From assembly GCF_004010195.1 (NCBI RefSeq), contig NC_057752.1:3585639-3649638 (forward strand): a stretch of 64,000 nt of DNA, written 5' to 3'. The position numbers and the translations under genes were made by a program. Below are positions 1 through 64,000 of the stretch, in pieces; the first letter of the stretch is position 1; the number at the start of each line of letters is the position of its first letter. Under the pieces are notes generated by a model that saw only the letters and a program-made list of their open reading frames with translations, had not been told where the DNA came from and did not search any database. The stretch comes from Chiloscyllium plagiosum (taxonomy: Eukaryota).

Positions 1-1840
1 CCTTCTTCACTATCCTATCTACCTGCGACTCTACTTTCAAGGAGCTATGAACCTGCACTCCAAGGTCTCTTTGTTCAGCAACACTCCTTAGGACCTTACC
101 ATTAAGTGGATAAGTCCTGCTAAGATTTGCTTTCCCAAAATGCAGCACCTCGCATTTATCTGAATTAAACTCCATCTGCCACTTCTCAGCCCATTGGCCC
201 ATCTGATCAAGACCCTGTTGTAATCTGAGGTAACCTTTATCGCTGTCCACTACACCTCCAATTTTGGTTGCATCTGCAAACTTACCAACTGTACCTCTTG
301 TGGTCACATTCAAATCATTTATGTAAATGACAAAAAGTAGAGGACCCAGCATCGATCCTTGTGACACTCCACTGGTCACAGGCCTCCAGTCTGAAAAACA
401 ACCCTCCACCACCACCCTCTGTCTTCTCCCTTTGAGCCACTTCTGTATCCAAACGGCTCGTTCTCCCTGTATTCCATGAGATCTATCCTTGCTAATCAGT
501 CTCCCATGGGGAACCTTGTCGAGCACCTTACTGAAGTCCAAATAGATCACATCTACCGCTCTGCCTTCATCAATCCTCTTTGTTACTTCTTCAAAATACT
601 CAGTCAAGTTTGTGAGAACATGATTTCCCACGCACAAAGCCATGTTGACTTTCCCTAATCAGTCCTTGCCTTTCCAAATACCTGTACATCCTGTCCCTCA
701 GGATTCCCTCCAACAACTTGCCCAACACTGACGTCAGGCCCACCGGTCTATAGTTCCCTGGCTTGTCCATACCATCTTTCTGAAACAGTGGCACGACGTT
801 GGCCAACCTCCAGTCTTCTGGTACCTCACCTGTGAGTATCGATGATACAAATATCTCAGCAAGACGCCCAGCAATCACTTCTCTAGCTTCCCACACAGTT
901 CTCGGGTACTCCTGATCAGGTCCTGGGGATTTATCCACTTTTATGCGCTTCAAGACAACCAGCACTTCCTCCTCTGTAATATGGACATTTTGCAAGATGT
1001 CACCATCTATTTCCCTACAGTTTATATCTTCCATGTCCTTCTCCACAGTAAATACTGATGCAAAATAGTCGTTTAGTATTTTCCCCATCTCATGCGGCTC
1101 CACACAAAGGCCGCCTCGCTGATCTTTGAGGGGCCATATTCTCTCCCTAGTTACCCTTTTGTCCTTAATGTATTTGTAAAAACCCTTTGGATTCTCCTTA
1201 ATTCTATTTGCCAAAGCTATTTCATGTCCCCTTTTTGCCCTCCTGATTTCCCTCTTAAGTATACTCCTACTTTCTTTATACTCTAAGGATTCACTCGATC
1301 TATCCTGTCTATACCTGACATATGCTTCCTTCTTTTTCTTAACCAAACCCTCAATTTCTTTAGTCATCCAGCATTCCCTATACCTACCAGCCTTCCCTTT
1401 CACCCTGACAGGAATACACTTTCTCTGGATTCTTGTTATCTCATTACTGAAGGCTTCCCATTTTCCAGCCGTCCCTTTACCTGCGAACATCTGCCTCCAA
1501 TCAGCTTTCAAAAGTTCTTGCCAAATACCATCAAAATTGGCCTTTCTCCAGTTTAGGACTTCAACTTTTGGATCTGGTCTATCCTTTTCCATCACTATTT
1601 TAAAACGAATAGAATTATGGTCGCTGGCCCCAAAGTCTTCCCCCATTGACACTTCAGTCACCTGTCCTGCCTTACTTCCCAAGAGTAGGTCAAGTTTTGC
1701 ATCTTCTCTAGTAGGTACATCCACAAACTGAATCAGAAAATTTTCTTGTACACACTTAACAAATTCCTCTCCATCTAAACCCTTAACACTATGGCAGTCC
1801 CAGTCTATGTTTGAAAAGTTAAATCTCTTACCATAGCCAG
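1..1840 (-). mobile_element. CR1/HER1-like LINE, ORF2 fragment (end of APE endonuclease, tether, start of RT), frameshifted, runs off window start
   Basis: ORF 600-1724(-) has CR1 motifs PTREDAKLDLLL, SDHN, KSPGPD, VPEDWRLANVVPLF, PGNYRPVGLTS, QHGFVRGKSC. A degenerate DFNF.NIDW motif lies near 1800-1830 and RT-like sequence continues to position 1 in a shifted frame. Confidence 0.95.
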
Positions 1841-2030
1841 TAATTTCCCCTTCCTATGTTGTTGATTCCCATGTGTACAATGACCTCCTGCTGGCCCTTC
1901 TCCCCCTTGAGAACATTCTGCACTCTCTCTGAGACATCCTTGATCCTGGCACCAGGGAGGCAACACACCATTCCGATTTTTCGCTGCTGGCCACAGAAAC
2001 GTCTGTCTGTACCTCGGACTACATAAGCAA
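1841..2030 (-). mobile_element. CR1 ORF1 SGNH/GDSL esterase-like fragment
   Basis: Translation VRGTDRRFCG...VCCLPGARIKDVSERVQNVLKGE...VIVHMGINNIG matches the recalled CR1 ORF1 esterase blocks (CLPGA, VHVGTND). Confidence 0.85.
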
Positions 2031-3872: not shown

Positions 3873-3974
3873 TAAAAACGAGGTAAAAACAAGGGCTTTT
3901 GCCCGAAACGTCAATTTTGCCTGTCCTCGGATGCTGCCTGAATTGCTGTGCTCTTCCAGCACCACTGATCCAGA
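3873..3974. mobile_element. Penelope-derived mini-element, 13-bp TSD
   Basis: attcacatcttgg at 3860-3872 and 3975-3987. Contains the hammerhead 3' half gggcttttgcccgaaacgtc. Confidence 0.8.
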
Positions 3975-11683: not shown

Positions 11684-11899
11684 GAGGAGAAAGTGAGGGC
11701 TGCAGATGCTGGAGATCAGAGCTGAAAATGTGTTGCTGGAAAAGCGCAGCAGGTCAGGCAGCATCCAGGGAACAGGAGAATCGACGTTTCGGGCATAAGC
11801 CCTTCTTCAGGAAGAAGGGCTTATGCCCGAAACGTCGATTCTCCTGTTCCCTGGAGGCTGCCTGACCTGCTGCGCTTTTCCAGCAACACATTTTCATCC
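11684..11899. mobile_element. Penelope-derived fold-back mini-element, 12-bp TSD
   Basis: ctgtagtcaaat at 11672-11683 and 11900-11911. Near-perfect inverted repeat centred near 11809. Confidence 0.9.
11778..11813 (-). ncRNA. Minimal hammerhead ribozyme motif
   Basis: Minus strand reads ttc CTGAAGA a gggc ttat gccc GAAA cg TC gattc. Helix I is short. Confidence 0.65.
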
Positions 11900-32883: not shown

Positions 32884-33768
32884 TGTTATGGTCCAGACCT
32901 TCAAATCCTTAACGGCATCTTGTTTTAAAGGCCAATATAATGTGCTGTGTTCTAGACGCAGTTCGTTTGGTCATACTACTCAATGTTAAGCAAAACACAA
33001 CTTATTTAAACGTTATGTTAAAATACAACAAAAGAAAACATAACTTGATGGGAAAATGTAACAGAATAATACATCTAGTAACTGTTACCAATTAACTGTT
33101 CCAATACAGTAACATCCCATTAACACACCCCCTTGGCAAAAAGGCAAATTCAGAGAAATAGATTTTGTTTCACATGCAATCTGGCACCTAGGCAGAGCTG
33201 GCTAGTGTAGACCCACAAAGCAAACAGTTGAGAGTGTGTTGCTGGAAAAGCACAGCAGGTCAGGCAGCATCCGAGGAGCAGGAGAATCGACGTTTCAGGC
33301 ATTAGCCCTTCATCAGGAATGAAGGGCTTATCTGCCTGACCTGCTGCGCTTTTCCAGCACCGCACTCTCGACTCTGATCTCCAGCATCTGCAGTCCTCAC
33401 TTGCTCCACAAAGCAAACAGCTTGGGTTTTTTTCAAAAAGACTGGAACAATAGAAGCAGCTTGTCTGCACGCTTAGAAAGCTGAGGAAGAGGAACTCCAG
33501 CTTTTGGCTGTAATTGAGAGAGGGACAAATAGCTTCCACTTCTTCAAGCGCACAATAGCAACTGCTGAAACTAACAACTAGAAATCCTGGTCTGTGAGAG
33601 CTGGCTACACCCAGCCAGGCCGCTTCTACTGTTCAAACCTTACAAAACAAAACCCAAGACCTCCAAAGCTGTTTACTTTATGGGTCTACACTCACCAGCT
33701 CTACCTTAAAACCTCTCTTCCATACAAAAAAGGACAACACAACCTCTTAAAGTGACAGCATCATCACA
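32884..33768. mobile_element. Solo LTR (Gypsy-like), TG...CA
   Basis: Starts tgttatggtccagacc and ends catcatcaca. Flanks are ccag/ccat. Homologous to 56470-57217 (catcccat..ac.c.cccttggcaaa..gcaaattcag). Confidence 0.7.
33228..33405. mobile_element. Penelope-derived fold-back mini-element, 15-bp TSD, with hammerhead motif (33286-33320, -)
   Basis: ccacaaagcaaacag at 33213-33227 and 33406-33420. Minus strand reads attc CTGATGA a gggc taat gcct GAAA cg TC. Confidence 0.85.
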
Positions 33769-36420: not shown

Positions 36421-37664
36421 CCCTGTAGTGTCCAAGAAGCCAATGAAGGTCAGCGAGACCAGGCAGCTGTGGAGCTGGTGCCTGGCATTTTCCATGATTG
36501 TGGGCACGCAGTCTGCTGCCAGGCAAGCTCAGCCGAGGAGGGCTGCGTTGGCACTGCATTGGTGAACTGGGTGGAGGCCTGAATGCCAATCTACTCCGCA
36601 TGGAAAGGTGCATGCCTGCTCTTTGCAGCTGCAGGCTGCCATTAAGTAGCAGCCCTTCTAGAATTCCCACACGTTCCCAAGGGCACCAACACAAATGGTG
36701 TTTCATTGCTATTATCTCTCAAATTGAATGCTGCTTATTTAACATGAAGGAAAAAGTGGCTTCCCGTGTTAGCACACACAAAAACAAGTGGGCAACACGG
36801 GGTTAAAATTATTATCTTGTGTGCGCCTCATTGGTTTTCCACTTGAGACACAATCAAATTGAGGCCATCCATGCACACATTGGCCAAGTGCTCATTCAGG
36901 GCTGCTTCCCCATCTGTGCTCAGCGCTGACGACTGAGTGCAGTGTGAAATAAAGGCCTGAACAAAGATTTCGGATCCACAGCCAGAACAGATTAAACATT
37001 CTGGGTCAGGTTACAGAATCACTGGTCCAGATACTCATGTCGCGATCAAAACGTGGATTTCAGTGTGAGGTATCTTCTGTTATCTTACATCCTTGTAACA
37101 AAAGATGTGCTCTTTTCTCCATTTCCACCTCAACTTCTGTTCAAATTCCTCCTCCTCCCGAGCTTTCCTCCCCTGAAACTGTGTTACTTGTGTTGAGGTA
37201 CAACAGACTCTCCACACCATGTGACATTCATTCTCTCCTGGCCTTCATACACTTACGCATCCAACTGCAGGAAGCTTCACAGCTCAACTTGAGAATGGGT
37301 TCATCCATTGTTTCAGAGTGAATCATTGGCTGGCTACCACGATCAAGGACCTGGATGATTCCACCATTCTCTCCCTGACCCTGGGGCAGACAGGGCAAAC
37401 GGTGCCAGGATCTCTGTGTGCACGTCAGCCTTGGTCACGCATGCTGCATTGCAAATTACACGGACATGATCTTCAATGTGTGCACAATAACCTAGCAGTA
37501 TAACCTGCCTGATAATCATTCCAAGATGGCAGTGCAGTAGGACTTCTGAGCCAGAACTTGTACACTCCATCCATTTCCTTTTTGGTCACTTATTTTTTCC
37601 CTTTGTCGCCCCCATCCTCAGGCAGCATTGGTGATGTCTGGGGTGAAAGCCAGCGTTAATTCCC

Positions 37665-39205
37665 ATCTCAATGTAGACTCGAACTCCCGGCCTCAGTGTG
37701 GGAATGGAACTCCCGGCCCCAGTGTGGGACTGGAACTCCCCCCCTCAGTGTGGGACTGGAACTCCCGGCCCCAGTGTGGGACTGGAACCACCGGCCTCAA
37801 TGTGGGACTGGAACTCCCGGCCTCAGTGTGGGACTGGAACTCCCGGCCTCAGTGTGGGACTGGAACTCCCGGTCTCAGTGTGGGACTGGAACTCCCGGCC
37901 TCAGTGTGGGACTGGAATTCCCGGCCTCAGTGTGGGACTGGAACTCCCCCCCTCAGTGTGGAACTGGAACAACCGGTCTCAGTGTGGGACTGGAACTCCC
38001 GGCCTCAGTGTGGGACTGGAACTCCCCCCCTCACTGTGGGACTGGAACTCCCCCCCTCACTGTGGGACTGGAACTCCCGGCCTCAGTGAGGGACTGGAAC
38101 TCCCGGTCTCAGTGTGGACTGGAACTCCCCCCCTCAGTGTGGGACTGGAACTCCCGGCCTCAGTGTGGGACTGGAACTCCGGGCTTCAGTGTGGGACTGG
38201 AACTCCCCCCCTCAGTGTGGGACTGGAACTCCCCCCCTCAGTGTGGGACTGGAACTCCCGGGCTCAGTGTGGGACTGGAACCCCCGGCCTCAGTGTGGGG
38301 CTCGAACTTCCGGCCTCAGTGTGGGACTGGAACTCCCGCCCTCAGTGTGGGACTGGAACACCCCCCCTCAGTGTGGGACTGGAACTCCCGGCCTCAGTGT
38401 GGGACTGGAACTTCCCTCTCAGTGTGGGAGTGGAACTCCCCCCCTCACTGTGGGACTGGAACTTCCGGCCTCAGTGTGGGATTGGAACTCCCCCCCTCAG
38501 TGTGGGACTGGAACTCCTGGCCTCAGTGTGGGACTCGAACTCCCGGCATCAGTGTGGGACTGGAACTCCCGGCCTCAGTGTGTGATTGGAACTCCCCCCC
38601 TCAGTGTGGGACTGGAACTTCCCTCTCAGTGTGGGAGTGGAACTCCCCCCCTCACTGTGGGACTGGAACTTCCGGCCTCAGTGTGGGATTGGAACTCCCG
38701 GCCTCAGTGTGGGACTGGAACCCCCGGCCTCAGTGTGGGACTGGAACTCCTCCCCACAGTGTGGGACTGGAACTCCCGGCCTCAGTGTGGGACTGGAACT
38801 CCCCCCCACAGTGTGGGACTGGAACTCCCCCCCTCAGTGTGGGACTGGAACTCCCCCCCTCAGTGTGGGACTGGAATTCCCGGCCTCAGTGTGGGACTGG
38901 AACTCCCGGCCTCAGTGTGGGACTGGAACCCCCGGCCTCAGTGTGGGACTGGAACCCCCGGCCTCAGTGTGGGACTGGAACCCCCGGCCTCAGTGTGGGA
39001 CTGGAACCCCCGGCCTCAGTGTGGGACTGGAACCCCCGGCCTCAGTGTGGGACTGGAACCCCCGGCCTCAGTGTGGGACTGGAACCCCCGGCCTCAGTGT
39101 GGGACTGGAACCCCCGGCCTCAGTGTGGGACTGGAACCCCCGGCCTCAGTGTGGGACTGGAACTCCTCCCCACAGTGTGGGACTGGAACTCCCGGCCTCA
39201 GTGTG
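37665..39205. repeat. 26-bp minisatellite (cagtgtgggactggaactcccggcct)n, about 59 units, runs into the gap
   Basis: Directly visible tandem array. Confidence 0.98.
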
Positions 39206-40835: not shown

Positions 40836-41108
40836 CCCAGGAGCAAGGACCACATTTTTATCTGATTCCCTGCCAGTGTAAATGAACTTCCAGCCATGCA
40901 GCCCAGTGCAGATTGATGTGGCTGTATGACTTCTTAATGAACCTTTTCTTTCCTGCACTGTTCCCAGAACCATCCGCTATCTTCACAGCTGTTCATTTCA
41001 ACCTGAAATGTGCCCTTTTTCTCCCAACTGCTTTCGACTGTATCTCCGTCACATTCTTTGTAAAAACAGAAGTTTACTCTCATCGTCCTTAACAATTAGT
41101 TCACAAGC

Positions 41109-41343
41109 TGAAACTTTATTGCTGGAACAGCACAGCAGGTCAGGCAGCATCCAGGGAACAGGAAATTCGACGTTTCGGGCACAGGCCCTTCTTCAGGATT
41201 CATTCCTGATTCATTCCTGAAGAAGGGCCTGTGCCCGAAACGTCGAATTTCCTGTTCCCTGGATGCTGCCTGACCTGCTGTGCTGTTCCAGCAATAAAGT
41301 TTCAACTTTGATCTCCAGCATCTGCAGACCTCACTTTCTCCTC
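41109..41343. mobile_element. Penelope-derived fold-back mini-element, 16-bp TSD, two divergent hammerhead motifs
   Basis: caattagttcacaagc at 41093-41108 and 41344-41359. Arms of about 90 bp are perfectly inverted. Confidence 0.92.
41213..41248 (+). ncRNA. Minimal type I hammerhead ribozyme motif
   Basis: attc CTGAAGA a gggc ctgt gccc GAAA cg TC gaat. Helix I attc/gaat, helix II gggc/gccc, GUC site ending at 41244. Confidence 0.75.
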
Positions 41344-41759
41344 CAATTAGTTCACAAGCCCCAATCTAAAATGTCAGTGTTCAATAGAAGGAACCAACTG
41401 CATAAGATTTAGTGAGAAAGAGGTACAGCACCAGGCCCATATCCCTCCAAACCCTTCCTATTCATACACCCATCCAGATGCCTTTTAAATGCTGTAATCC
41501 AAGCTGAACCAAACATTCAGAAAACGTGAGAATTTGAATTTACTTAAAAGAAAACACAACTGGTGTCACTGAATGTCAGCGAGATGCTCTTGGATTGTGA
41601 CCTAAAGAGGGGGAGTCAGAGTGAGGGGAACGTATGGTGAGGGTGCCCAGAGCCAAAGATATAGGTTGCTCACGGTGCTGAAGGAGCGATTGGCGTGTCA
41701 AATGGGTGTTAATGGAGCGAAAGGAAGAAAACGTCCACACTGCTCAGCGCAAAGTCGAC

Positions 41760-44112: not shown

Positions 44113-45031
44113 GAGGAGAAAGTGAGGTCTGCAGATGCTGGAGATCAAAGTTGAAACTTTATTGCTGGAACAGCACAGCAGGTCAGGCAGCATCCAGGGA
44201 ACAGGAGATTCAACGTTTCGGGCACAGGCCCTTCTTCAGGAATGAGCAGAGAGTGTTCAGCAGGAGAAGATAAAAGGTAGGGAGGAGGGACTTGGAGGAG
44301 GGGAGTTGGAAATGTGATAGGTGGAAAGAGGTCAAGGTGAGGGTGATAGGTCGGAGTAGGGTGGAGGCGGAGAGGTCGAGGAGAAGACTGCAGGTCAGGA
44401 AGGCGGTGCTGGGCTGGAGGGATTCGGCTGAGACAAGGTGGGGGGAGGGGGGATGAAGAAACTGGTGAAGTCCAAGTTCATCCCCTGTGGTTGGAGGGTT
44501 CCCAGTCGGAAGATAAGACGCTCCTCCTCCGACCGTCGGGTTGTTGTGGTTTGGCGGTGGATGAGTCCAATGACCTGCATATCCTCGGTGGAGTGGGAGG
44601 GGGAGTTGAAATGCTGTGCTACAGGTTGGTTGGGTTGGTTCGTCCGGGTGGCCCAGAGGTGCTCTCTGAATCGCTCCGCAAGTAGGCGGCCTGTCTCCCC
44701 AATATAGTGGAGGCCACACCGGCTGCAGCGGATGCAGTAGGTGATGTGGGTGGAGGTGCAGGTGAATCTGTGGCGGATATGGAAGTTTCCTTTGGGGCCT
44801 TGGAGAGAAGTGAGGGGGGAGGTGTGGGCGCAAGTGTTGCACCTCCTGCGGTTGCAAGGGAAGGTGCCGGGAGTGGAGGTTGGGTCGGTGGGGGGTGTGG
44901 ATCTGACAAGGGAGTCGCGGAGGGAATGGTCTCTACGGAAAGCTGATAGGGGAGGGGAGGGAAATATATCCTTGGTGCTGGGGTCTGTTTGGAGGTGGCG
45001 GAAGTGACGGCGGATGATGCGCTGTACATGG
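44113..45031 (-). mobile_element. 5'-truncated Neptune-type Penelope element with open GIY-YIG endonuclease frame (44395-45031) and 3' pLTR
   Basis: FPCNRRRCNTC...ITYCIRCSRCGLHYIGETGR.LAERFREH...VAQHFN...EERLIFRLGTLQPQGMN. TSD aacactc at 44106-44112 and 45032-45038. Confidence 0.93.
44208..44243 (-). ncRNA. Minimal hammerhead ribozyme motif in Penelope 3' pLTR
   Basis: On the element sense strand: attc CTGAAGA a gggc ctgt gccc GAAA cg TT gaat. Confidence 0.72.
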
Positions 45032-49374: not shown

Positions 49375-49568
49375 GCATGGTGCCACAGTGGTTAGCACTG
49401 CTGCCACACATGCCAGGGACCCGGGTTCGATTCCACTCTTGGGTGACTGCCTGTGCAGAGTTCATACATTCTCCCCGTGTCTGCGTGGGTTTCCTGCAGG
49501 TGCTCCGGTTTCCTCCCATAATCCAAAGACGTGCAGGTCAGGGCAGATTGGCCACGCTAAATTGCCCA
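49375..49568 (+). mobile_element. HE1-like SINE 5' part
   Basis: cagtggttagcactgctgcc...ggttcgattcc. Confidence 0.8.
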
Positions 49569-49570
49569 GA

Positions 49571-50432
49571 CGAAAGTGAGCACTGCAGATGCTGGAGACG
49601 AGAGTCGAGAGTGTGGTGTTGGAAAAGCACAGCAGGTCAGGCAGCATCCGAGGAGCAGGAGAATCGATGTTCCGGGCATAAGCCCTTCATCAGGAATGAG
49701 GCTGGCAGTCTCGGGGGTGGAGAGATAAACGGGAGGGTGGGAAGGAAGATGGACAGGTAGGACAGGTCTTGAGGACGGTGCTGAGCTAGAAGGTTGGAAC
49801 TGGGGTAAGGTGGGGGGAGGGGAAATGAGGAAACTGGTGAAGTCCACATTGATGCCCTGGGGTTGGAGGGTCCCAGGTGGAAGATGAGGCGTTCTTCCTC
49901 CAGGCGTCAGGTGATTAGGGAGTGGCGATGGAGGAGGCCCAGGACCTGCATGTCCTCAGCAGAGTGGGCAGGGGAGTTGAAGTGTTAGGCCACAGGGCAG
50001 TAGGGTTGGTTGGTTAGTGCGGGTGTCCCAGAGGTGTTCTCTGAAGCGCTCTGCGAGTAGGTGTCCTGTCTCGCCAATGTAGAGGAGACCGCATCAGGAG
50101 CAATGGATACAGTACATGACTTGTGGAAGTGCGGGTGAAATTTTGATGTGGACGTGGAAGCTTTCTTTGGGACCTTGGACGGAGGTGATGGGGGAGGTGT
50201 GGGTGCAGGTTTTGCAATTCCTGCGATGGCAGGGGAAGGTGCCAGAAGGGGAGGGTGGGTTGTTAGGGGGCATGGACCTGACCAGGTAGTCACGGAGAGA
50301 ACGGTCTTTACGGAAAGTGGATAGGGGTGGGGAGGAAAATATATCCCTGGTGGTGGAGTCCATTTGTAGGTGGTGGAAATGGTGGAGGATGATACGATGC
50401 ATACGGAGGTTGGCGGGGTGGAAGGTGAGGAC
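49571..50432 (-). mobile_element. Degenerate Neptune-type Penelope 3' fragment
   Basis: TFHPANLRMHRIILHHFHHLQ...GTFPCHRRNCKTC, frameshifted GIY-YIG and a mutated hammerhead (GGAA) near 49663-49697. Confidence 0.9.
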
Positions 50433-52004
50433 CATTTTGAAAAAAAGAGTAAGGAGGTTTTCCCCAGTGTTTTGGTCAATATTTATCCCTCCAGTAAAAA
50501 CAATCATTACCACATTACCATCTTTGGGAGCTTGCTCTGTACAAATTGGTTGCTGTGTTTCCTAACTACAACAGCGCCTCCTGTTCAAAAGTATTTCATT
50601 AGGTGTAAAGTGCTTTGAGCTATCTGGTGATCATGGAAAGAGTTATGGAAATGCTACCATTTGCCGACTGTGGCATTTTCCCACCTCATGTTTGTCTTCA
50701 TAACTCTGGCTATGTCTCAACAAATAATCCAGTCGCTTTTAAAGTATCCTTGGATATTTCAGCCAACGTACAAGGGCACCATCTGAACACAAGTTACTTT
50801 TGACCAATTTTCCACATTCTTCAAACAAACCTTGGAAGTTTTATTTTGTTAGATATTAGGGTGGGGGAAAGGTAATTAAAACTGGGAACAGATCTTCAGC
50901 CAAGTGCTTAGTATTCACCAGATACTTTGCCTGAAAGCAACTTTTTTTTTCATCAAATGGTCTGTGTTGTAAAGATTTATCACATCGACTTCCTCATTTT
51001 GTCACACAGAGACATTCTGATGAATATTTTGTGACAAGTAATGTCACATTTTAGAAGATTGTGGAACTTGGGAGATCAGAAGAGGCGAGAATCCAAAAAG
51101 AAATGGCTTCAAAAGCACTTATTCCATAATCAGACAATTCAATTTGAATGGCTCATTTCCCTTGAAATTGGCTATTTTTGATTTTTAATGTTATTTATGA
51201 ATCACAAGTTATCACTCACATTCTTGAAGTCATGTTCTGGTAATTTCTTTTTGCTGCAGATATCGAAGTTGAACTGGGAATTTTGATTAATGCTTGCAGC
51301 TCATACTTATTTTGTGGTCTGAGTCATGCCAGGCTGATACCAAGTCAACCTTTAGTGATTGCTGTGGGTAGCCAGTGTTCAAAGTAAGTGCCTTCCATCT
51401 CACCTCACCCCTTTCCCCATCTTCTGCAGGCTTCCCCCAAGAGAAACTGGTCAACTGACAAGGACGGAGAACGCCTTGAATAATCGCACGAGGCAGGGAA
51501 GGGTTCCATGGCTCTTTAAGCAGAGGGGTCACAGGGCAGAGCACTCGAAATGTGATTGGAATGTGGTTGCAGATTCCTCTAGCCAAAATGACAGGTATTA
51601 ATATCATACCGTCTGCGCTCCAGGAATTAAAAGCTGAACTTAGCAATTTTTCGGAGCCGCTTTTGTTGGTAACAATCATAAACGAGAAGTCATGGTAATG
51701 ATGATTAGATTTCAAATTGAAATCTATTTGTGGAGATCTGCTTCTGTGGCAATGCAGCCAAGTTATTATGTGGTAATCTGAGAAATGATATACTGCTTCT
51801 GTGGAGCTGGATAAGAACACTGGTCTATCGCAGCCATTCAGGATAAGCTGACCCTTCATTATTCACAATTCAAAATGGCCGACACTCCCTTTCGTACAGT
51901 GGAAAATGAGGCAACTCACCATTCAATTGTTTGACCCATCAATATCAACAGTTCAAAAACCCACTCGCGGTTAGACATCTTGTCCATGGATAGAGGATAG
52001 AAAG

Positions 52005-54461: not shown

Positions 54462-54670
54462 AGAGTGTGGTGCTGGAAAAGCACAGCCAGTCAGGCGGCA
54501 TCCGAGGAGGAGAAGGGTCAATATTTCGGGCCTGAGCCCTTCATCAGGAGCCTGTCATCATTCGGGCTCCAGCCCGAAACGTCAATTCTCGGATGCTGCC
54601 CGACCTGCTGTGATTTTCCAGCAACACACTCTCGATTCTGATCTCCAGCATCTGCAGACCTCACTTTCTC
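54462..54670. mobile_element. Older Penelope-derived fold-back mini-element, 14-bp TSD (1 mismatch)
   Basis: ctaatttt(a/c)caaac at 54448-54461 and 54671-54684. Confidence 0.8.
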
Positions 54671-55587
54671 CTAATTTTCCAAACACTGGGTCAACGGTCT
54701 AACATCCAGATAGCCTCCAACCCCAACACACTTTTCTTGATGGATTGCACTTTGCAACATGCGGCATCTACTATCGAACAGGATATGACAAGAGCTCACA
54801 GCTAGTCATGACTGACATCTGAAATACCAGGCCGCCTGTCAACACAAATGCACAAATGCGAAGTCTGAGTTTGCTTTATCGAGAAGTCAGCTTTTCTACC
54901 TTAATCTGCTCTGCGCACGCGTAATGTGCCAGGAGTCAAAACGACAGGAGAATGAAGAGAAATTAAATAAGAATTGCAGACTGATAATGCCAGGCATCAG
55001 CCTCGCTACCATGGCAACAAATACAGCTCCTGTGGGTTATAATGGACATGGGTCTCTGAAGCATCTAACAATTGATTTGAATTTCAAACGTAGCACAAGA
55101 TTTTACAAGGTACTTCAAGAGAGGAAGAGGCGTGACCAAGCCTGCCGTAGCTTCTGTGGAAATAAGTCTTTAAAGGACGAAAATCATCGAAGAAATAAAA
55201 TAAAAAGCTCCGATAATTTCATGTCAGCACATGCTTCGGAAAATATTACAGCTGTGGCTCTCTTGGTATCTCCAGTGTCTCTTTGAAATCTGCCAAATGT
55301 TTGTCTTCATGTAACCGTCCACGAAAGCTCAGATGTCCACACATTTCTCATGCTAATTACCCTTGAGGTCAATGGATGTGCTTGTCCATTTCAAGGGGCA
55401 GTTAGATGTCGATCACATTGCTGTGGGTCTGGAGTCACATATCAGCCAGACCGGATAAGGATGGCAAATTTCCTTTCCAAAAGGACATTGCTGAACGTGG
55501 CCATTTTGTTGGGACTCGCTCCATTGCCCAATGGAGGACACTTCAATGGAATCCTTCAGAAGTGCCGCCATCAAATTGTCCAATATA

Positions 55588-62640: not shown

Positions 62641-64000
62641 AAGTGCCCAGGGATGTACAGGTTAGGGTGGATTGGCCTTGCTAAATTGTACGAGGTAAAA
62701 ACAATGACTGCAGATGCTGGAAACCAGATTCTGGATCAGTGGTGCTGGAAGAGCACAGCAATTCAGGCAGCATTTTTGCTGCTCGTCGGATGCTGCCTGA
62801 ATTGCTGTGCTCTTCCAGCACCACTGATCCAGAACCTTGCTAAATTGTACCATAGTGCACAGGGATGTGCAGGTTAGGGTGGATTGGCCATGCTAACTTG
62901 TCCCATAGTGCCCAGGGATGTACAGGTTAGGGTGGAGTGGCCATGCTAAATTGCCCCATAGTGCACAGGGATGAGCAGGTTAGGGTGGATTGGCCATGCT
63001 AAATTACCCCATAGTGCCCAGGGATGTACAGGTTAGGGTGGAGTGGCCATGCTAAATTACCCCATAGTGCCCAGGGATGTGCAGGTTAGGGTGGATTGGC
63101 CATGCTAAATTGCTCCACGCTGCCCAGGGAAGTGCAGGTTAGGGTGGAGTGGCCATGCTAAATTGTCCCATAGTGCCCTGGGATGTACAGGTTAGGGTGG
63201 AGTAGCCATGCTAAATTGTCCCATAGTGCCCGGGGATGTGCAGGTTAGGGTGGATTGGCCATGCTAAATTGTCCCATAGTGCCCGGGGATGTGCATGTTA
63301 GGGTGGATTGGCCATGCTAAATTGTCCCATAGTGCCCAGAGATGTGCAGGTCAGGGTGGATTGGCCATGCTAAATCGTCCCATAGTGTCCAGGGATGTGC
63401 AGGTTAGGGTGGAGTGGCCATGCTAAATTGTCCCATAGTGCCCAGGGATGTGCAGGTTAGGGTGGAGTGGCCATGCTGAATTATCGATAGTGCCCAGGGA
63501 TGTGCAGGTTAGTGTGGAGTGGCCAAGCTAAATTACTCATAGTGCCCAGGGATGTGCAGGTTAGTGTGGAGTGGCCATGCTAAATTACTCATAGTGCCCA
63601 GGGATGTGCAGGTTAGGGTGGATTGGCCATGCTAAATTGCCCCACACTGCCCAGGGATGTACAGGTTAGGGTGGATTGGCCATGCTAAATTGTCCCATAG
63701 TGTCCAGGGATGTGCAGGTTAGGGTGGATTGGCCATGCTAAATTGTCCCATAGTGCCCAGAAATGTGCAGGTTAATGTGGAGTGGCCATGCTAAATTGTC
63801 CCACAGTGTCCAGGGATGTGCAGAACAGGGTGGATTGGCCATGCTAAATTGTCCCATAGTGTCCAGGGATGTGCAGGTTAGGGTGAAGTGGCCATGCTAA
63901 ATTATCGATAGTGCCCAGGGATGTGCAGGTTAGTGTGGATTGGCCATGCTAAATTGTCCCATAGTGCCGAGGGCTGTGCAGGTTAGGGTGGAGTGGCCAA
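62599..64000 (+). repeat. 53-bp SINE-derived satellite, over 20 units, runs off window end
   Basis: Unit gatgtgcaggttagggtggattggccatgctaaattgtcccatagtgcccagg. Confidence 0.97.
62692..62834. mobile_element. Penelope-derived fold-back mini-element, 16-bp TSD
   Basis: ccttgctaaattgtac at 62676-62691 and 62835-62850. Confidence 0.9.

What the first reader, a model, noticed from the sequence alone, without database searches (positions are those of the whole stretch)
41109..41343. 235-bp non-coding mobile hairpin carrying two back-to-back hammerhead ribozyme motifs
Seen: a perfect 16-bp TSD and perfectly inverted arms of about 90 bp. A full hammerhead core lies on each strand: plus 41213-41248 (attc-CUGAAGA-a-gggc/gccc-GAAA-cg-UC-gaat) and minus 41165-41200. 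Helix III is just the palindrome ACGU with no loop. Known: Penelope pseudo-LTRs carry minimal type I hammerheads that are thought to cleave as dimers. Inference: any read-through transcript, sense or antisense, contains one ribozyme core plus its own antisense copy. It could act as a cleavage element or as a self-silenced dsRNA hairpin, in either orientation.
Basis: partly seen in the sequence, partly recalled or inferred. Interest (0 to 1): 0.72.

Follow-up and report, generated by a model that had tools for sequence, protein, structure and literature searches.

The report
Back-to-back Penelope retroelement end stub
This 235-base hairpin is real but ordinary: it is two head-to-head copies of the ribozyme-bearing end repeat of a very abundant Penelope-type jumping gene, likely built on the spot when both cut DNA ends primed copying of the element's RNA leader, and its ribozyme motifs are predicted to be locked inactive inside the hairpin.

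Summary
Observation confirmed: 16-bp TSD, perfect 90-bp arms, hammerhead core letters on both strands. The arms are the pseudo-LTR (pLTR) of a Penelope-like element (PLE): the same sequence ends a GIY-YIG-coding copy 3 kb away and RT+GIY-YIG copies elsewhere. A 22-mer of this young subfamily occurs 19,590 times. In an unbiased sample, 28 of 73 loci hold head-to-head pairs, all 28 with one tailed and one tail-less arm, the published 'inverted pLTR + tail + TSD' layout. The hairpin is not a mobile unit: its junction is unique in the genome. On either strand the antisense arm is transcribed first; helix II probability drops from 0.77 to under 1e-17, so a cleavage role is unlikely. No RNA read covered the unique flanks; other individuals likely carry the empty site. 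Best mechanism (inferred): two-ended priming on an uncut RNA leader starting at the hammerhead's first base (51 of 105 arms start at -7..0). This scan found the same kind before on other DNA (55 notes). New member of a known kind; interest 0.2.

The parts
41093..41108 (+). Left copy of the 16-bp target-site duplication
41109..41198 (-). Inverted, tail-less pLTR copy (positions -2 to +87 relative to hammerhead C3; 39 nt short of the element's usual 3' end)
   Evidence: same tail-less end class (33-39 nt short) in 37 of 105 sampled arms
41165..41200 (-). Minimal hammerhead motif on the minus strand; core complete, helix I with an A-A mismatch at pair 3; predicted cut after 41169
41199..41209 (+). 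Junction filler: an extra 11-nt copy of the start of the direct arm; this junction is unique in the genome
   Evidence: sequence; 1 exact match
41210..41343 (+). Direct, tailed pLTR copy, starting 6-7 nt upstream of hammerhead C3
   Evidence: 98.5% identical over 133 nt to the end of the PLE copy at 44113-45030
41211..41216 (+). Initiator-like hexamer whose A is the first base of helix I; candidate 5' end of the template RNA (inferred; initiator consensus recalled, not from a call)
   Evidence: 5' ends of 51 of 105 sampled arms fall at -7..0, peak at -4/-3
41213..41248 (+). Minimal type I hammerhead motif; predicted cut after 41244
   Evidence: description in PMC4209133
41305..41343 (+). 39-nt one-sided 'tail'
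   Evidence: PLE tail of 30-40 bp in PMC8557442 and PMC11167929
41344..41359 (+). Right copy of the 16-bp target-site duplication
44113..45030 (-). Separate 5'-truncated copy of the parent PLE (Cys-rich linker, GIY-YIG endonuclease, 3' UTR, same pLTR); identifies the family

Best explanation
The hairpin is a single young insertion of two head-to-head end repeats (pLTRs) of an endonuclease-bearing Penelope-like retrotransposon, likely written in place when the element's enzyme cut both DNA strands 16 bp apart and each cut end primed its own short cDNA on the element's uncut RNA leader. SHOWN: the arms are the pLTR of an RT + GIY-YIG element; the pLTR also lies upstream of the element's N-terminal ORF (ATG 36 nt past the tail end), so both 3' end-points are internal to the RNA; one arm ends at the tail end and the other 39 nt short, the two end-points used family-wide; the junction is unique. 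INFERRED: one cDNA started at the tail end, the other at the tail-less site; both ran about 90-135 nt to the RNA's 5' end, probably a transcription start at the first base of the hammerhead; the two cDNA ends were joined in the middle, here with an 11-nt re-copy of the template end; both arms came from the same source RNA or source locus. PREDICTED: in any read-through transcript the ribozyme is trapped in a 90-bp duplex and does not cut; the hammerhead matters only in the parent element's RNA, where tandem copies or the protein could let it fold.
For: Family identity: (RVT_1 E 2.5e-7 above cut-off and GIY-YIG E 3e-4 just under cut-off in one 674-aa frame, L050). Leader position: (ATG at +36 in 18 of 20 loci; 348-aa frame in L298/L316). 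Two end-points: 60 of 105 arms end 0-5 nt and 37 of 105 end 33-39 nt from the end; all 28 pairs have one tailed and one shorter arm, 22 of 28 with a 12-17-bp TSD; 14 of 49 unpaired arms use the tail-less end alone, so it is a start site in its own right. PMC11167929 (parts 1-2 of 4 read) shows in vitro that a PLE protein cuts and extends both strands, starts at two internal RNA sites that delimit the tail, and uses uncut RNA. 5' ends: 51 of 105 at -7..0, only 3 of 105 at +26..+30 around the ribozyme cut. Head-to-head 49 versus tail-to-tail 4 in 975 kb. Same source: both arms here carry a variant seen in 0 of 94 sampled arms; of 17 fetched pairs carrying it, 4 have it in both arms (p 2e-5 against a 1% null). 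Trapping.
Against: Fold-back copying of one cDNA gives the same end product and would also explain shared variants; one microhomology junction (-3/+2) recurs in 4 of 28 pairs, and PMC3846280 (passages) reads such junction palindromes as self-priming. 13 of 17 variant-bearing pairs are discordant (later mutation and two different RNAs cannot be told apart). No direct RNA evidence for a start at -4: no pile-up of read starts or ends (single-cell poly(A) library, about 2% read). A cap-derived G before -4 starts was not clear: 5 G, 5 A, 2 T of 12. No intact full-length element was recovered: the copies fetched are truncated or broken by assembly gaps, so leader ORF and RT-EN ORF were not seen in one frame.
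Confidence: 0.72

Rival explanations
1. Same family and same origin at insertion, but the hairpin forms by fold-back: one cDNA reaches the template end, snaps back on a short palindrome and copies itself until the tail-less site, where it is joined to the other target end.
For: Both arms share a rare variant here and in 4 of 17 fetched pairs; a palindromic microhomology junction recurs in 4 of 28 pairs; self-priming is proposed in PMC3846280.
Against: The tail-less end is used by 14 of 49 unpaired arms, several with their own TSD; junctions carry fillers up to 135 nt and arms of very different length; the recurring junction occurs with either arm tailed; in vitro both strands are extended.
Confidence: 0.18
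2. The locus has been kept because a read-through transcript uses it, as a cleavage element or as a dsRNA substrate for editing or small-RNA production.
For: A perfect 90-bp stem would form on either strand. Family-level RNA reads exist on both strands (1,313 laid). 2 of 30 U6 loci are joined to sister-subfamily pLTRs exactly at the predicted cut, indirect evidence that these ribozymes can cut in some RNA.
Against: Helix II probability under 1e-17 in growing transcripts of both strands. 0 of 1,313 laid RNA reads on the unique flanks (weak test). Insertion apparently absent from haplotypes of other individuals. Arms are still perfect and the subfamily is 0.57% diverged: too young to show selection. 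Copies decay at the CpG sites of the core. A-to-G differences in RNA were mostly matched by DNA variants.
Confidence: 0.06
3. The 235-bp hairpin is a non-autonomous element (MITE-like or retrozyme-like) that moves as a unit.
For: TSD-bounded, non-coding, and about 150,000 similar hairpins by extrapolation. Non-autonomous derivatives of this family do exist (224-nt tandems and pLTR-to-pLTR deletions).
Against: The junction is unique; 24 junction types in 28 pairs; retrozymes are direct tandems, not inverted pairs.
Confidence: 0.04

Closest known systems
Endonuclease-positive Penelope-like element insertions with inverted pLTR, one-sided 30-40-bp tail and TSD (PMC8557442 passages; Pen2a_Av in PMC3846280 passages; Drosophila virilis Penelope in PMC2377424 passages)
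   Same: 5'-truncated direct pLTR plus adjacent inverted, shorter, tail-less pLTR, head-to-head, bounded by a TSD; parent encodes RT and C-terminal GIY-YIG with a Cys-rich linker as described for Neptune/Nematis clades.
   Different: No ORF between the repeats: this is the shortest form. TSD 16 bp (12-17 in the family sample) against 8-10 bp in the rotifer cases. Copy number is very high (19,590 exact hits of one 22-mer). Clade not settled by a tree here.
[quoted passage not shown]
   Same: Short helix I, extra base between A9 and G10.1, G10.1-C11.1 pair, palindromic loop-less helix III; that paper already notes dual motifs about 100-700 bp apart on opposite strands; monomers did not cut, dimers cut weakly.
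   Different: Helix II is 4 bp here (7-8 bp in Schistosoma); the two cores are only about 20 nt apart; the main text read does not name a cartilaginous fish (supplements not seen).
Poseidon element of Anolis (PAc) in vitro system (Frangieh et al. 2024, PMC11167929, parts 1-2 of 4 read)
   Same: Two internal reverse-transcription start sites that delimit the tail; both target strands cut and extended; uncut RNA is the template.
   Different: In PAc the start sites lie 111-118 nt inside the ORF and the ORF starts within the hammerhead; here they lie 36 and about 72 nt upstream of the ATG. The parts read do not explain head-to-head stubs or a fixed 5' stop.
Non-LTR retrozymes (bioRxiv 10.64898/2026.07.22.740005, parts 1-3 of 5 read)
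   Same: Non-coding, pLTR-derived, carry type I hammerheads, depend on PLEs.
   Different: Retrozymes are direct tandem repeats able to form dimeric ribozymes; this is an inverted pair that cannot.
LINE-1 twin priming
   Same: Both target ends prime cDNA, giving a 5' inversion inside a TSD.
   Different: In LINE-1 the two cDNAs copy different parts of one RNA; here both copy the same 90 nt.

Membership tests
EN+ Penelope-like element (pLTR-derived insertion) | Repeat is the terminal repeat of an element encoding RT plus C-terminal GIY-YIG endonuclease | tested here: met
   Same pLTR ends the GIY-YIG copy at 44113-45030; RVT_1 and GIY-YIG in one frame in L050 and L052 (RVT_1 above cut-off in L050 only, GIY-YIG just under cut-off in both); P0001 is 97% identical to L050's frame
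EN+ Penelope-like element (pLTR-derived insertion) | Repeat lies both upstream and downstream of the ORF (pseudo-LTR) | tested here: met
   379 exact hits where the tail end continues into a leader with ATG at +36; a full-length copy in one piece was not recovered
EN+ Penelope-like element (pLTR-derived insertion) | Optional 30-40-bp tail at one end only; inverted 5' copy; TSD | tested here: met
   39-nt tail, inverted arm and 16-bp TSD here; 28 of 28 pairs one-sided
Neptune clade | Zn-finger-like Cys motif in the RT-EN linker | tested here: met
   Cys-rich linker in P0001 and L050; feature shared with Nematis per PMC8557442
Neptune clade | RT phylogeny groups with Neptune elements | not tested
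   No reference PLE proteins were fetched; no tree built
Minimal PLE hammerhead (min-HHR) | Conserved core, extra base after A9, helix II, short helix I, palindromic helix III | tested here: met
   across 114 census copies non-CpG core positions are 90-98% constant while N7 and loop II vary
Minimal PLE hammerhead (min-HHR) | Self-cleavage as a dimer | not testable with these tools
   Needs an assay; indirect hint from 2 of 30 U6 loci fused at the predicted cut of sister subfamilies
Curated Rfam hammerhead families | Match to a covariance model at gathering score | tested here: not met
Non-LTR retrozyme | Direct tandem repeats, each with a hammerhead | tested here: not met
   Inverted pair; separate 224-nt direct tandems of the same family exist elsewhere
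MITE-like element moving as a unit | Many copies with the same internal junction and different TSDs | tested here: not met
   1 exact match of the junction in the genome; 24 junction types in 28 pairs

The most novel reading that the evidence does not exclude
These stubs are the genomic record of a PLE 'strong-stop' step: the element's RNA begins at the first base of its hammerhead, a dimeric RT-endonuclease primes both target strands at two fixed internal sites on RNA from one source, and most reactions end after 90-135 nt as a head-to-head hairpin. The loop-less ACGU palindrome could pair two RNAs so that each protein subunit has its own template. On the order of 150,000 perfect or near-perfect hairpins would then be a by-product load of dsRNA and cruciform-forming DNA in this genome, and a ready data set for the open question of how PLE inverted repeats form.
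Probability: 0.4. Interest if true: 0.5.

Novelty: new member of a known kind. Interest (0 to 1): 0.2.

Why it matters
The locus itself matters little: it is one young, probably polymorphic copy among thousands, of an architecture described for Penelope-like elements. The family statistics are of some use, because how PLEs make their inverted repeats and what their weak hammerheads do are stated as open in PMC8557442 and PMC11167929. Two fixed 3' end-points, a sharp 5' stop at the hammerhead's first base, no stop at the cut site, and arms that share rare variants give concrete predictions for the existing in vitro PLE system.

Tried and rejected
Rfam: no hammerhead or other family at gathering score in the window; at E up to 10 only generic hairpin models, rejected as non-specific. 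First genome search ranked hits by likeness to a query that included the 5' junction, so its 30 loci were not used for end-point counts; an unbiased set was drawn by a 3' pattern. A DNA search with the 3' 89 nt returned nothing because its words are too common; uninformative. Long 'open frames' were mostly assembly gaps; 20 more stretches gave no intact full-length element. No indexed RNA holder was listed (no evidence either way); run X22 laid 0 reads (no test); X21 showed no start or end pile-up. RNA editing: 13 A>G and 8 T>C places in X21 against 7 and 5 in DNA run X2, mostly subfamily variants; inconclusive. Cap-derived G: 5 of 12, inconclusive. Insertions starting at the ribozyme cut: 3 of 105 within +26..+30, no pile-up. 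Ribozyme-specific conservation: core is conserved, but so is the non-ribozyme stretch +45..+63 (82-99%), and compensatory changes in helix II are few; rows came from BLAST to one reference, which favours similar copies. Host gene: no evident exon among 45 long frames in the window; intronic or intergenic status not settled. Literature searches: 'Penelope-like + strong-stop + pseudo-LTR' 0 papers; 'Penelope-like + twin priming' 2 unrelated papers by listing; 'Penelope + shark + hammerhead ribozyme' 1 review by listing; 'Penelope + Chondrichthyes + Neptune' 1 preprint; editing of PLE inverted repeats 1 unrelated review by listing. The library lacks most subscription papers, and supplements were not read.

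Full report
Observation. A 16-bp duplication (41093-41108, 41344-41359) bounds a 235-bp insert with perfect 90-bp inverted arms (41109-41198, 41215-41304), a 16-nt spacer and an unpaired 39-nt 3' extension. It folds at -193.8 kcal/mol, z -27.6, with 0 of 200 shuffles as stable. The plus-strand hammerhead motif is as written, with the predicted cut after 41244. The minus-strand motif has all core letters, but helix I carries an A-A mismatch at its third pair; that pair is unpaired in 76 of 95 family copies that cover it. Rfam does not detect the motif; the assignment rests on the minimal-hammerhead description in PMC4209133 (parts 1-2 of 4 read).

What the arms are. The direct arm has 16 related segments in the window. 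One, at 44113-44245 on the minus strand (98.5% identical), is the end of a 5'-truncated element whose upstream 633 nt translate without a stop into a Cys-rich linker and a GIY-YIG domain (Pfam E 8e-4, under the cut-off). All 150 scored genomic matches to that protein are 94-100% identical, and two longer frames carry RT and GIY-YIG together (L050, L052). In 379 places the repeat's end continues into a leader with an ATG 36 nt later in 18 of 20 loci, opening a 348-aa frame in one locus before an assembly gap. The repeat thus lies before and after the ORF: it is the pLTR of an endonuclease-bearing Penelope-like element. The Cys linker points to the Neptune or Nematis type (PMC8557442 passages); no tree was built. 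No intact full-length copy was recovered. The genome is 3.56 Gb; earlier notes call it a shark, which I did not test.

How common it is. A 22-mer of the young subfamily has 19,590 exact matches, its reversed control 0. In 100 stretches of 10 kb taken at round positions of large contigs (975,429 bases without N) there were 197 pLTR segments of all ages, 49 head-to-head pairings and 4 tail-to-tail; 42 pairs are tight. Scaled up, that is roughly 700,000 segments and 150,000 hairpins, a rough extrapolation.

Anatomy of the family. I fetched the first 100 listed pattern hits as 80 loci and dropped 7 that duplicated a pair partner; the 73 left held 105 arms, 28 head-to-head pairs and 49 unpaired arms (L168 and L188 look like one insertion duplicated). 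All 28 pairs have one arm ending 0-2 nt from the element's end and one ending 23-38 nt short; 22 of 28 show a 12-17-bp TSD. Over all arms, 60 of 105 end within 5 nt of the end and 37 end 33-39 nt short; 14 of the 49 unpaired arms use the short end. This is the layout in print: an inverted 5'-truncated copy, a 30-40-bp tail at one end and a TSD (PMC8557442 and PMC3846280, passages). PMC4209133 already mentions dual minimal hammerheads close together on opposite strands. 5' ends are sharply placed: 51 of 105 at -7..0 relative to hammerhead C3 (peak -4/-3), 18 at +1..+10, 17 further upstream, 19 beyond +10, and only 3 within +26..+30 around the ribozyme cut. Position -4 is the first base of helix I and the A of an initiator-like hexamer (consensus recalled). 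Arms differ from the window's reference copy at 72 of 12,596 sites (0.57%).

Is the hairpin mobile? No sign of it. Its junction, which holds an extra 11-nt copy of the arm's start, occurs once in the genome, and the 28 pairs show 24 junction types, with one microhomology junction recurring four times with either arm tailed. Each hairpin looks built at its landing site.

One source for both arms. Both arms here carry a variant found in 0 of 94 sampled arms and in 45 exact pattern matches genome-wide. I fetched 30 of the 45 (27 insertions); 17 were pairs covering the site in both arms: 4 concordant, 13 discordant, p 2e-5 against a 1% chance. A second variant was shared by both arms in L288 and L295. 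So at least some pairs are copied from one RNA, one source locus or one cDNA, or were homogenised later; these cannot be separated here.

Can the ribozyme work here? The cores point away from each other, so on either strand the antisense arm is transcribed before the core. Helix II has probability 0.77 in the isolated arm and under 1e-17 at every transcript length tested on both strands (equilibrium folding, no kinetics or protein). Minimal hammerheads did not cut as monomers and cut weakly as dimers; the Anolis one needed the PLE protein, and its mutants still inserted; 1 of 9 Xenopus tandem dimers cut. Following a lead from earlier notes, I checked 30 of 48 U6 matches: 2 are joined to pLTRs of older sister subfamilies, both at the first base after the predicted cut (for L259 read against the window copy at 3888). 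That is indirect evidence that the parent RNAs are sometimes cut, and it says nothing for the hairpin. Across 114 census copies the non-CpG core positions are 90-98% constant while N7 and loop II vary, CpG sites decay, and 54 of 114 keep core and helix II intact; the non-ribozyme stretch downstream is as conserved. This fits selection on source elements and neutral decay of copies.

Is the locus used? In about 2% of one raw single-cell poly(A) run, 1,313 reads lay on the repeat, on both strands, and none on the unique flanks; a second run laid none; no start or end pile-up; A-to-G differences were mostly DNA variants. This is a weak test. DNA contigs suggest polymorphism: in run X2 a contig runs from the left flank into the insert with no difference, whereas in X3 and X4 contigs of another haplotype stop fitting at 41108 with 72 and 93 letters left over, and the right flank shows exactly their depths (8.69 and 19.3); X5 has the same haplotype with 32 letters unlaid. 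The joint itself was not among the rows shown, so the empty allele is inferred. No host exon was evident in the window.

Mechanism. Best reading (0.72): staggered double cut, two cDNAs primed from the two target ends at the two internal start sites of an uncut RNA leader, run-off at the RNA's 5' end near -4, and joining in the middle. The in vitro PLE work supplies both-strand extension, two internal start sites and uncut template; the run-off point and the joining are my inference. Fold-back self-priming (0.18) yields the same product and is the published suggestion. A host function (0.06) or a self-mobile hairpin (0.04) have little support.

Novelty. The kind is known; this family was not found in my literature searches, but supplements of PMC4209133 were not read and those of the bioRxiv preprint, which covers one cartilaginous fish, are closed, so it may be listed there. 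The scan has noted the same kind of hairpin many times (55 notes in at least 16 genomes); these are unchecked AI notes, not support. Verdict: new member of a known kind, interest 0.2; novel case probability 0.4, interest 0.5 if true.

Noticed in passing
window 11684-11896, 33226-33407, 54471-54672, 62708-62820: Four more head-to-head stubs of older pLTR subfamilies, each with one tailed and one shorter arm.
   Followed up: partly
L299-L302, L335; eight loci in the first 100 of 379 hits: Direct tandems with an exact 224-nt period (pLTR plus 79 nt of leader), each unit with a hammerhead; arrays start at -2 to -4. Candidate non-LTR retrozyme of this family and the natural construct in which a dimeric ribozyme could fold.
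   Followed up: partly
L297, L314, L315, L320, L325, L328 (similar L319, L326): Internally deleted pLTR-to-pLTR mini-elements sharing one breakpoint (+124 of the leader joined to -70 of the 3' UTR); looks like an amplifying non-autonomous subfamily and a possible source of stubs.
   Followed up: partly
L242 and L259, just after position 1607: U6 copies joined to sister-subfamily pLTRs at the first base after the predicted hammerhead cut (2 of 30 U6 loci).
   Followed up: partly
L254, L258 and about eight other loci among L236-L265: By eye, two U6 copies run into PLE endonuclease-like coding sequence and several run into the head of one abundant short repeat; other U6 chimeras.
   Followed up: no
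L316 (= L298), leader ORF: 348-aa N-terminal frame ending in five copies of a 12-residue Pro/Thr-rich repeat at an assembly gap.
   Followed up: no
L168 and L188: Two pairs 3.5 Mb apart on contig C1 with the same -149/-76 junction: one insertion later duplicated, or a hairpin copied as a unit.
   Followed up: no
window about 37550-39200: Long GC-rich tandem array next to an assembly gap, open in several frames.
   Followed up: no
window 600-1853 (-), 49557-50561 (-): A LINE-type ORF fragment, and a decayed copy of an older PLE subfamily with the same layout.
   Followed up: no
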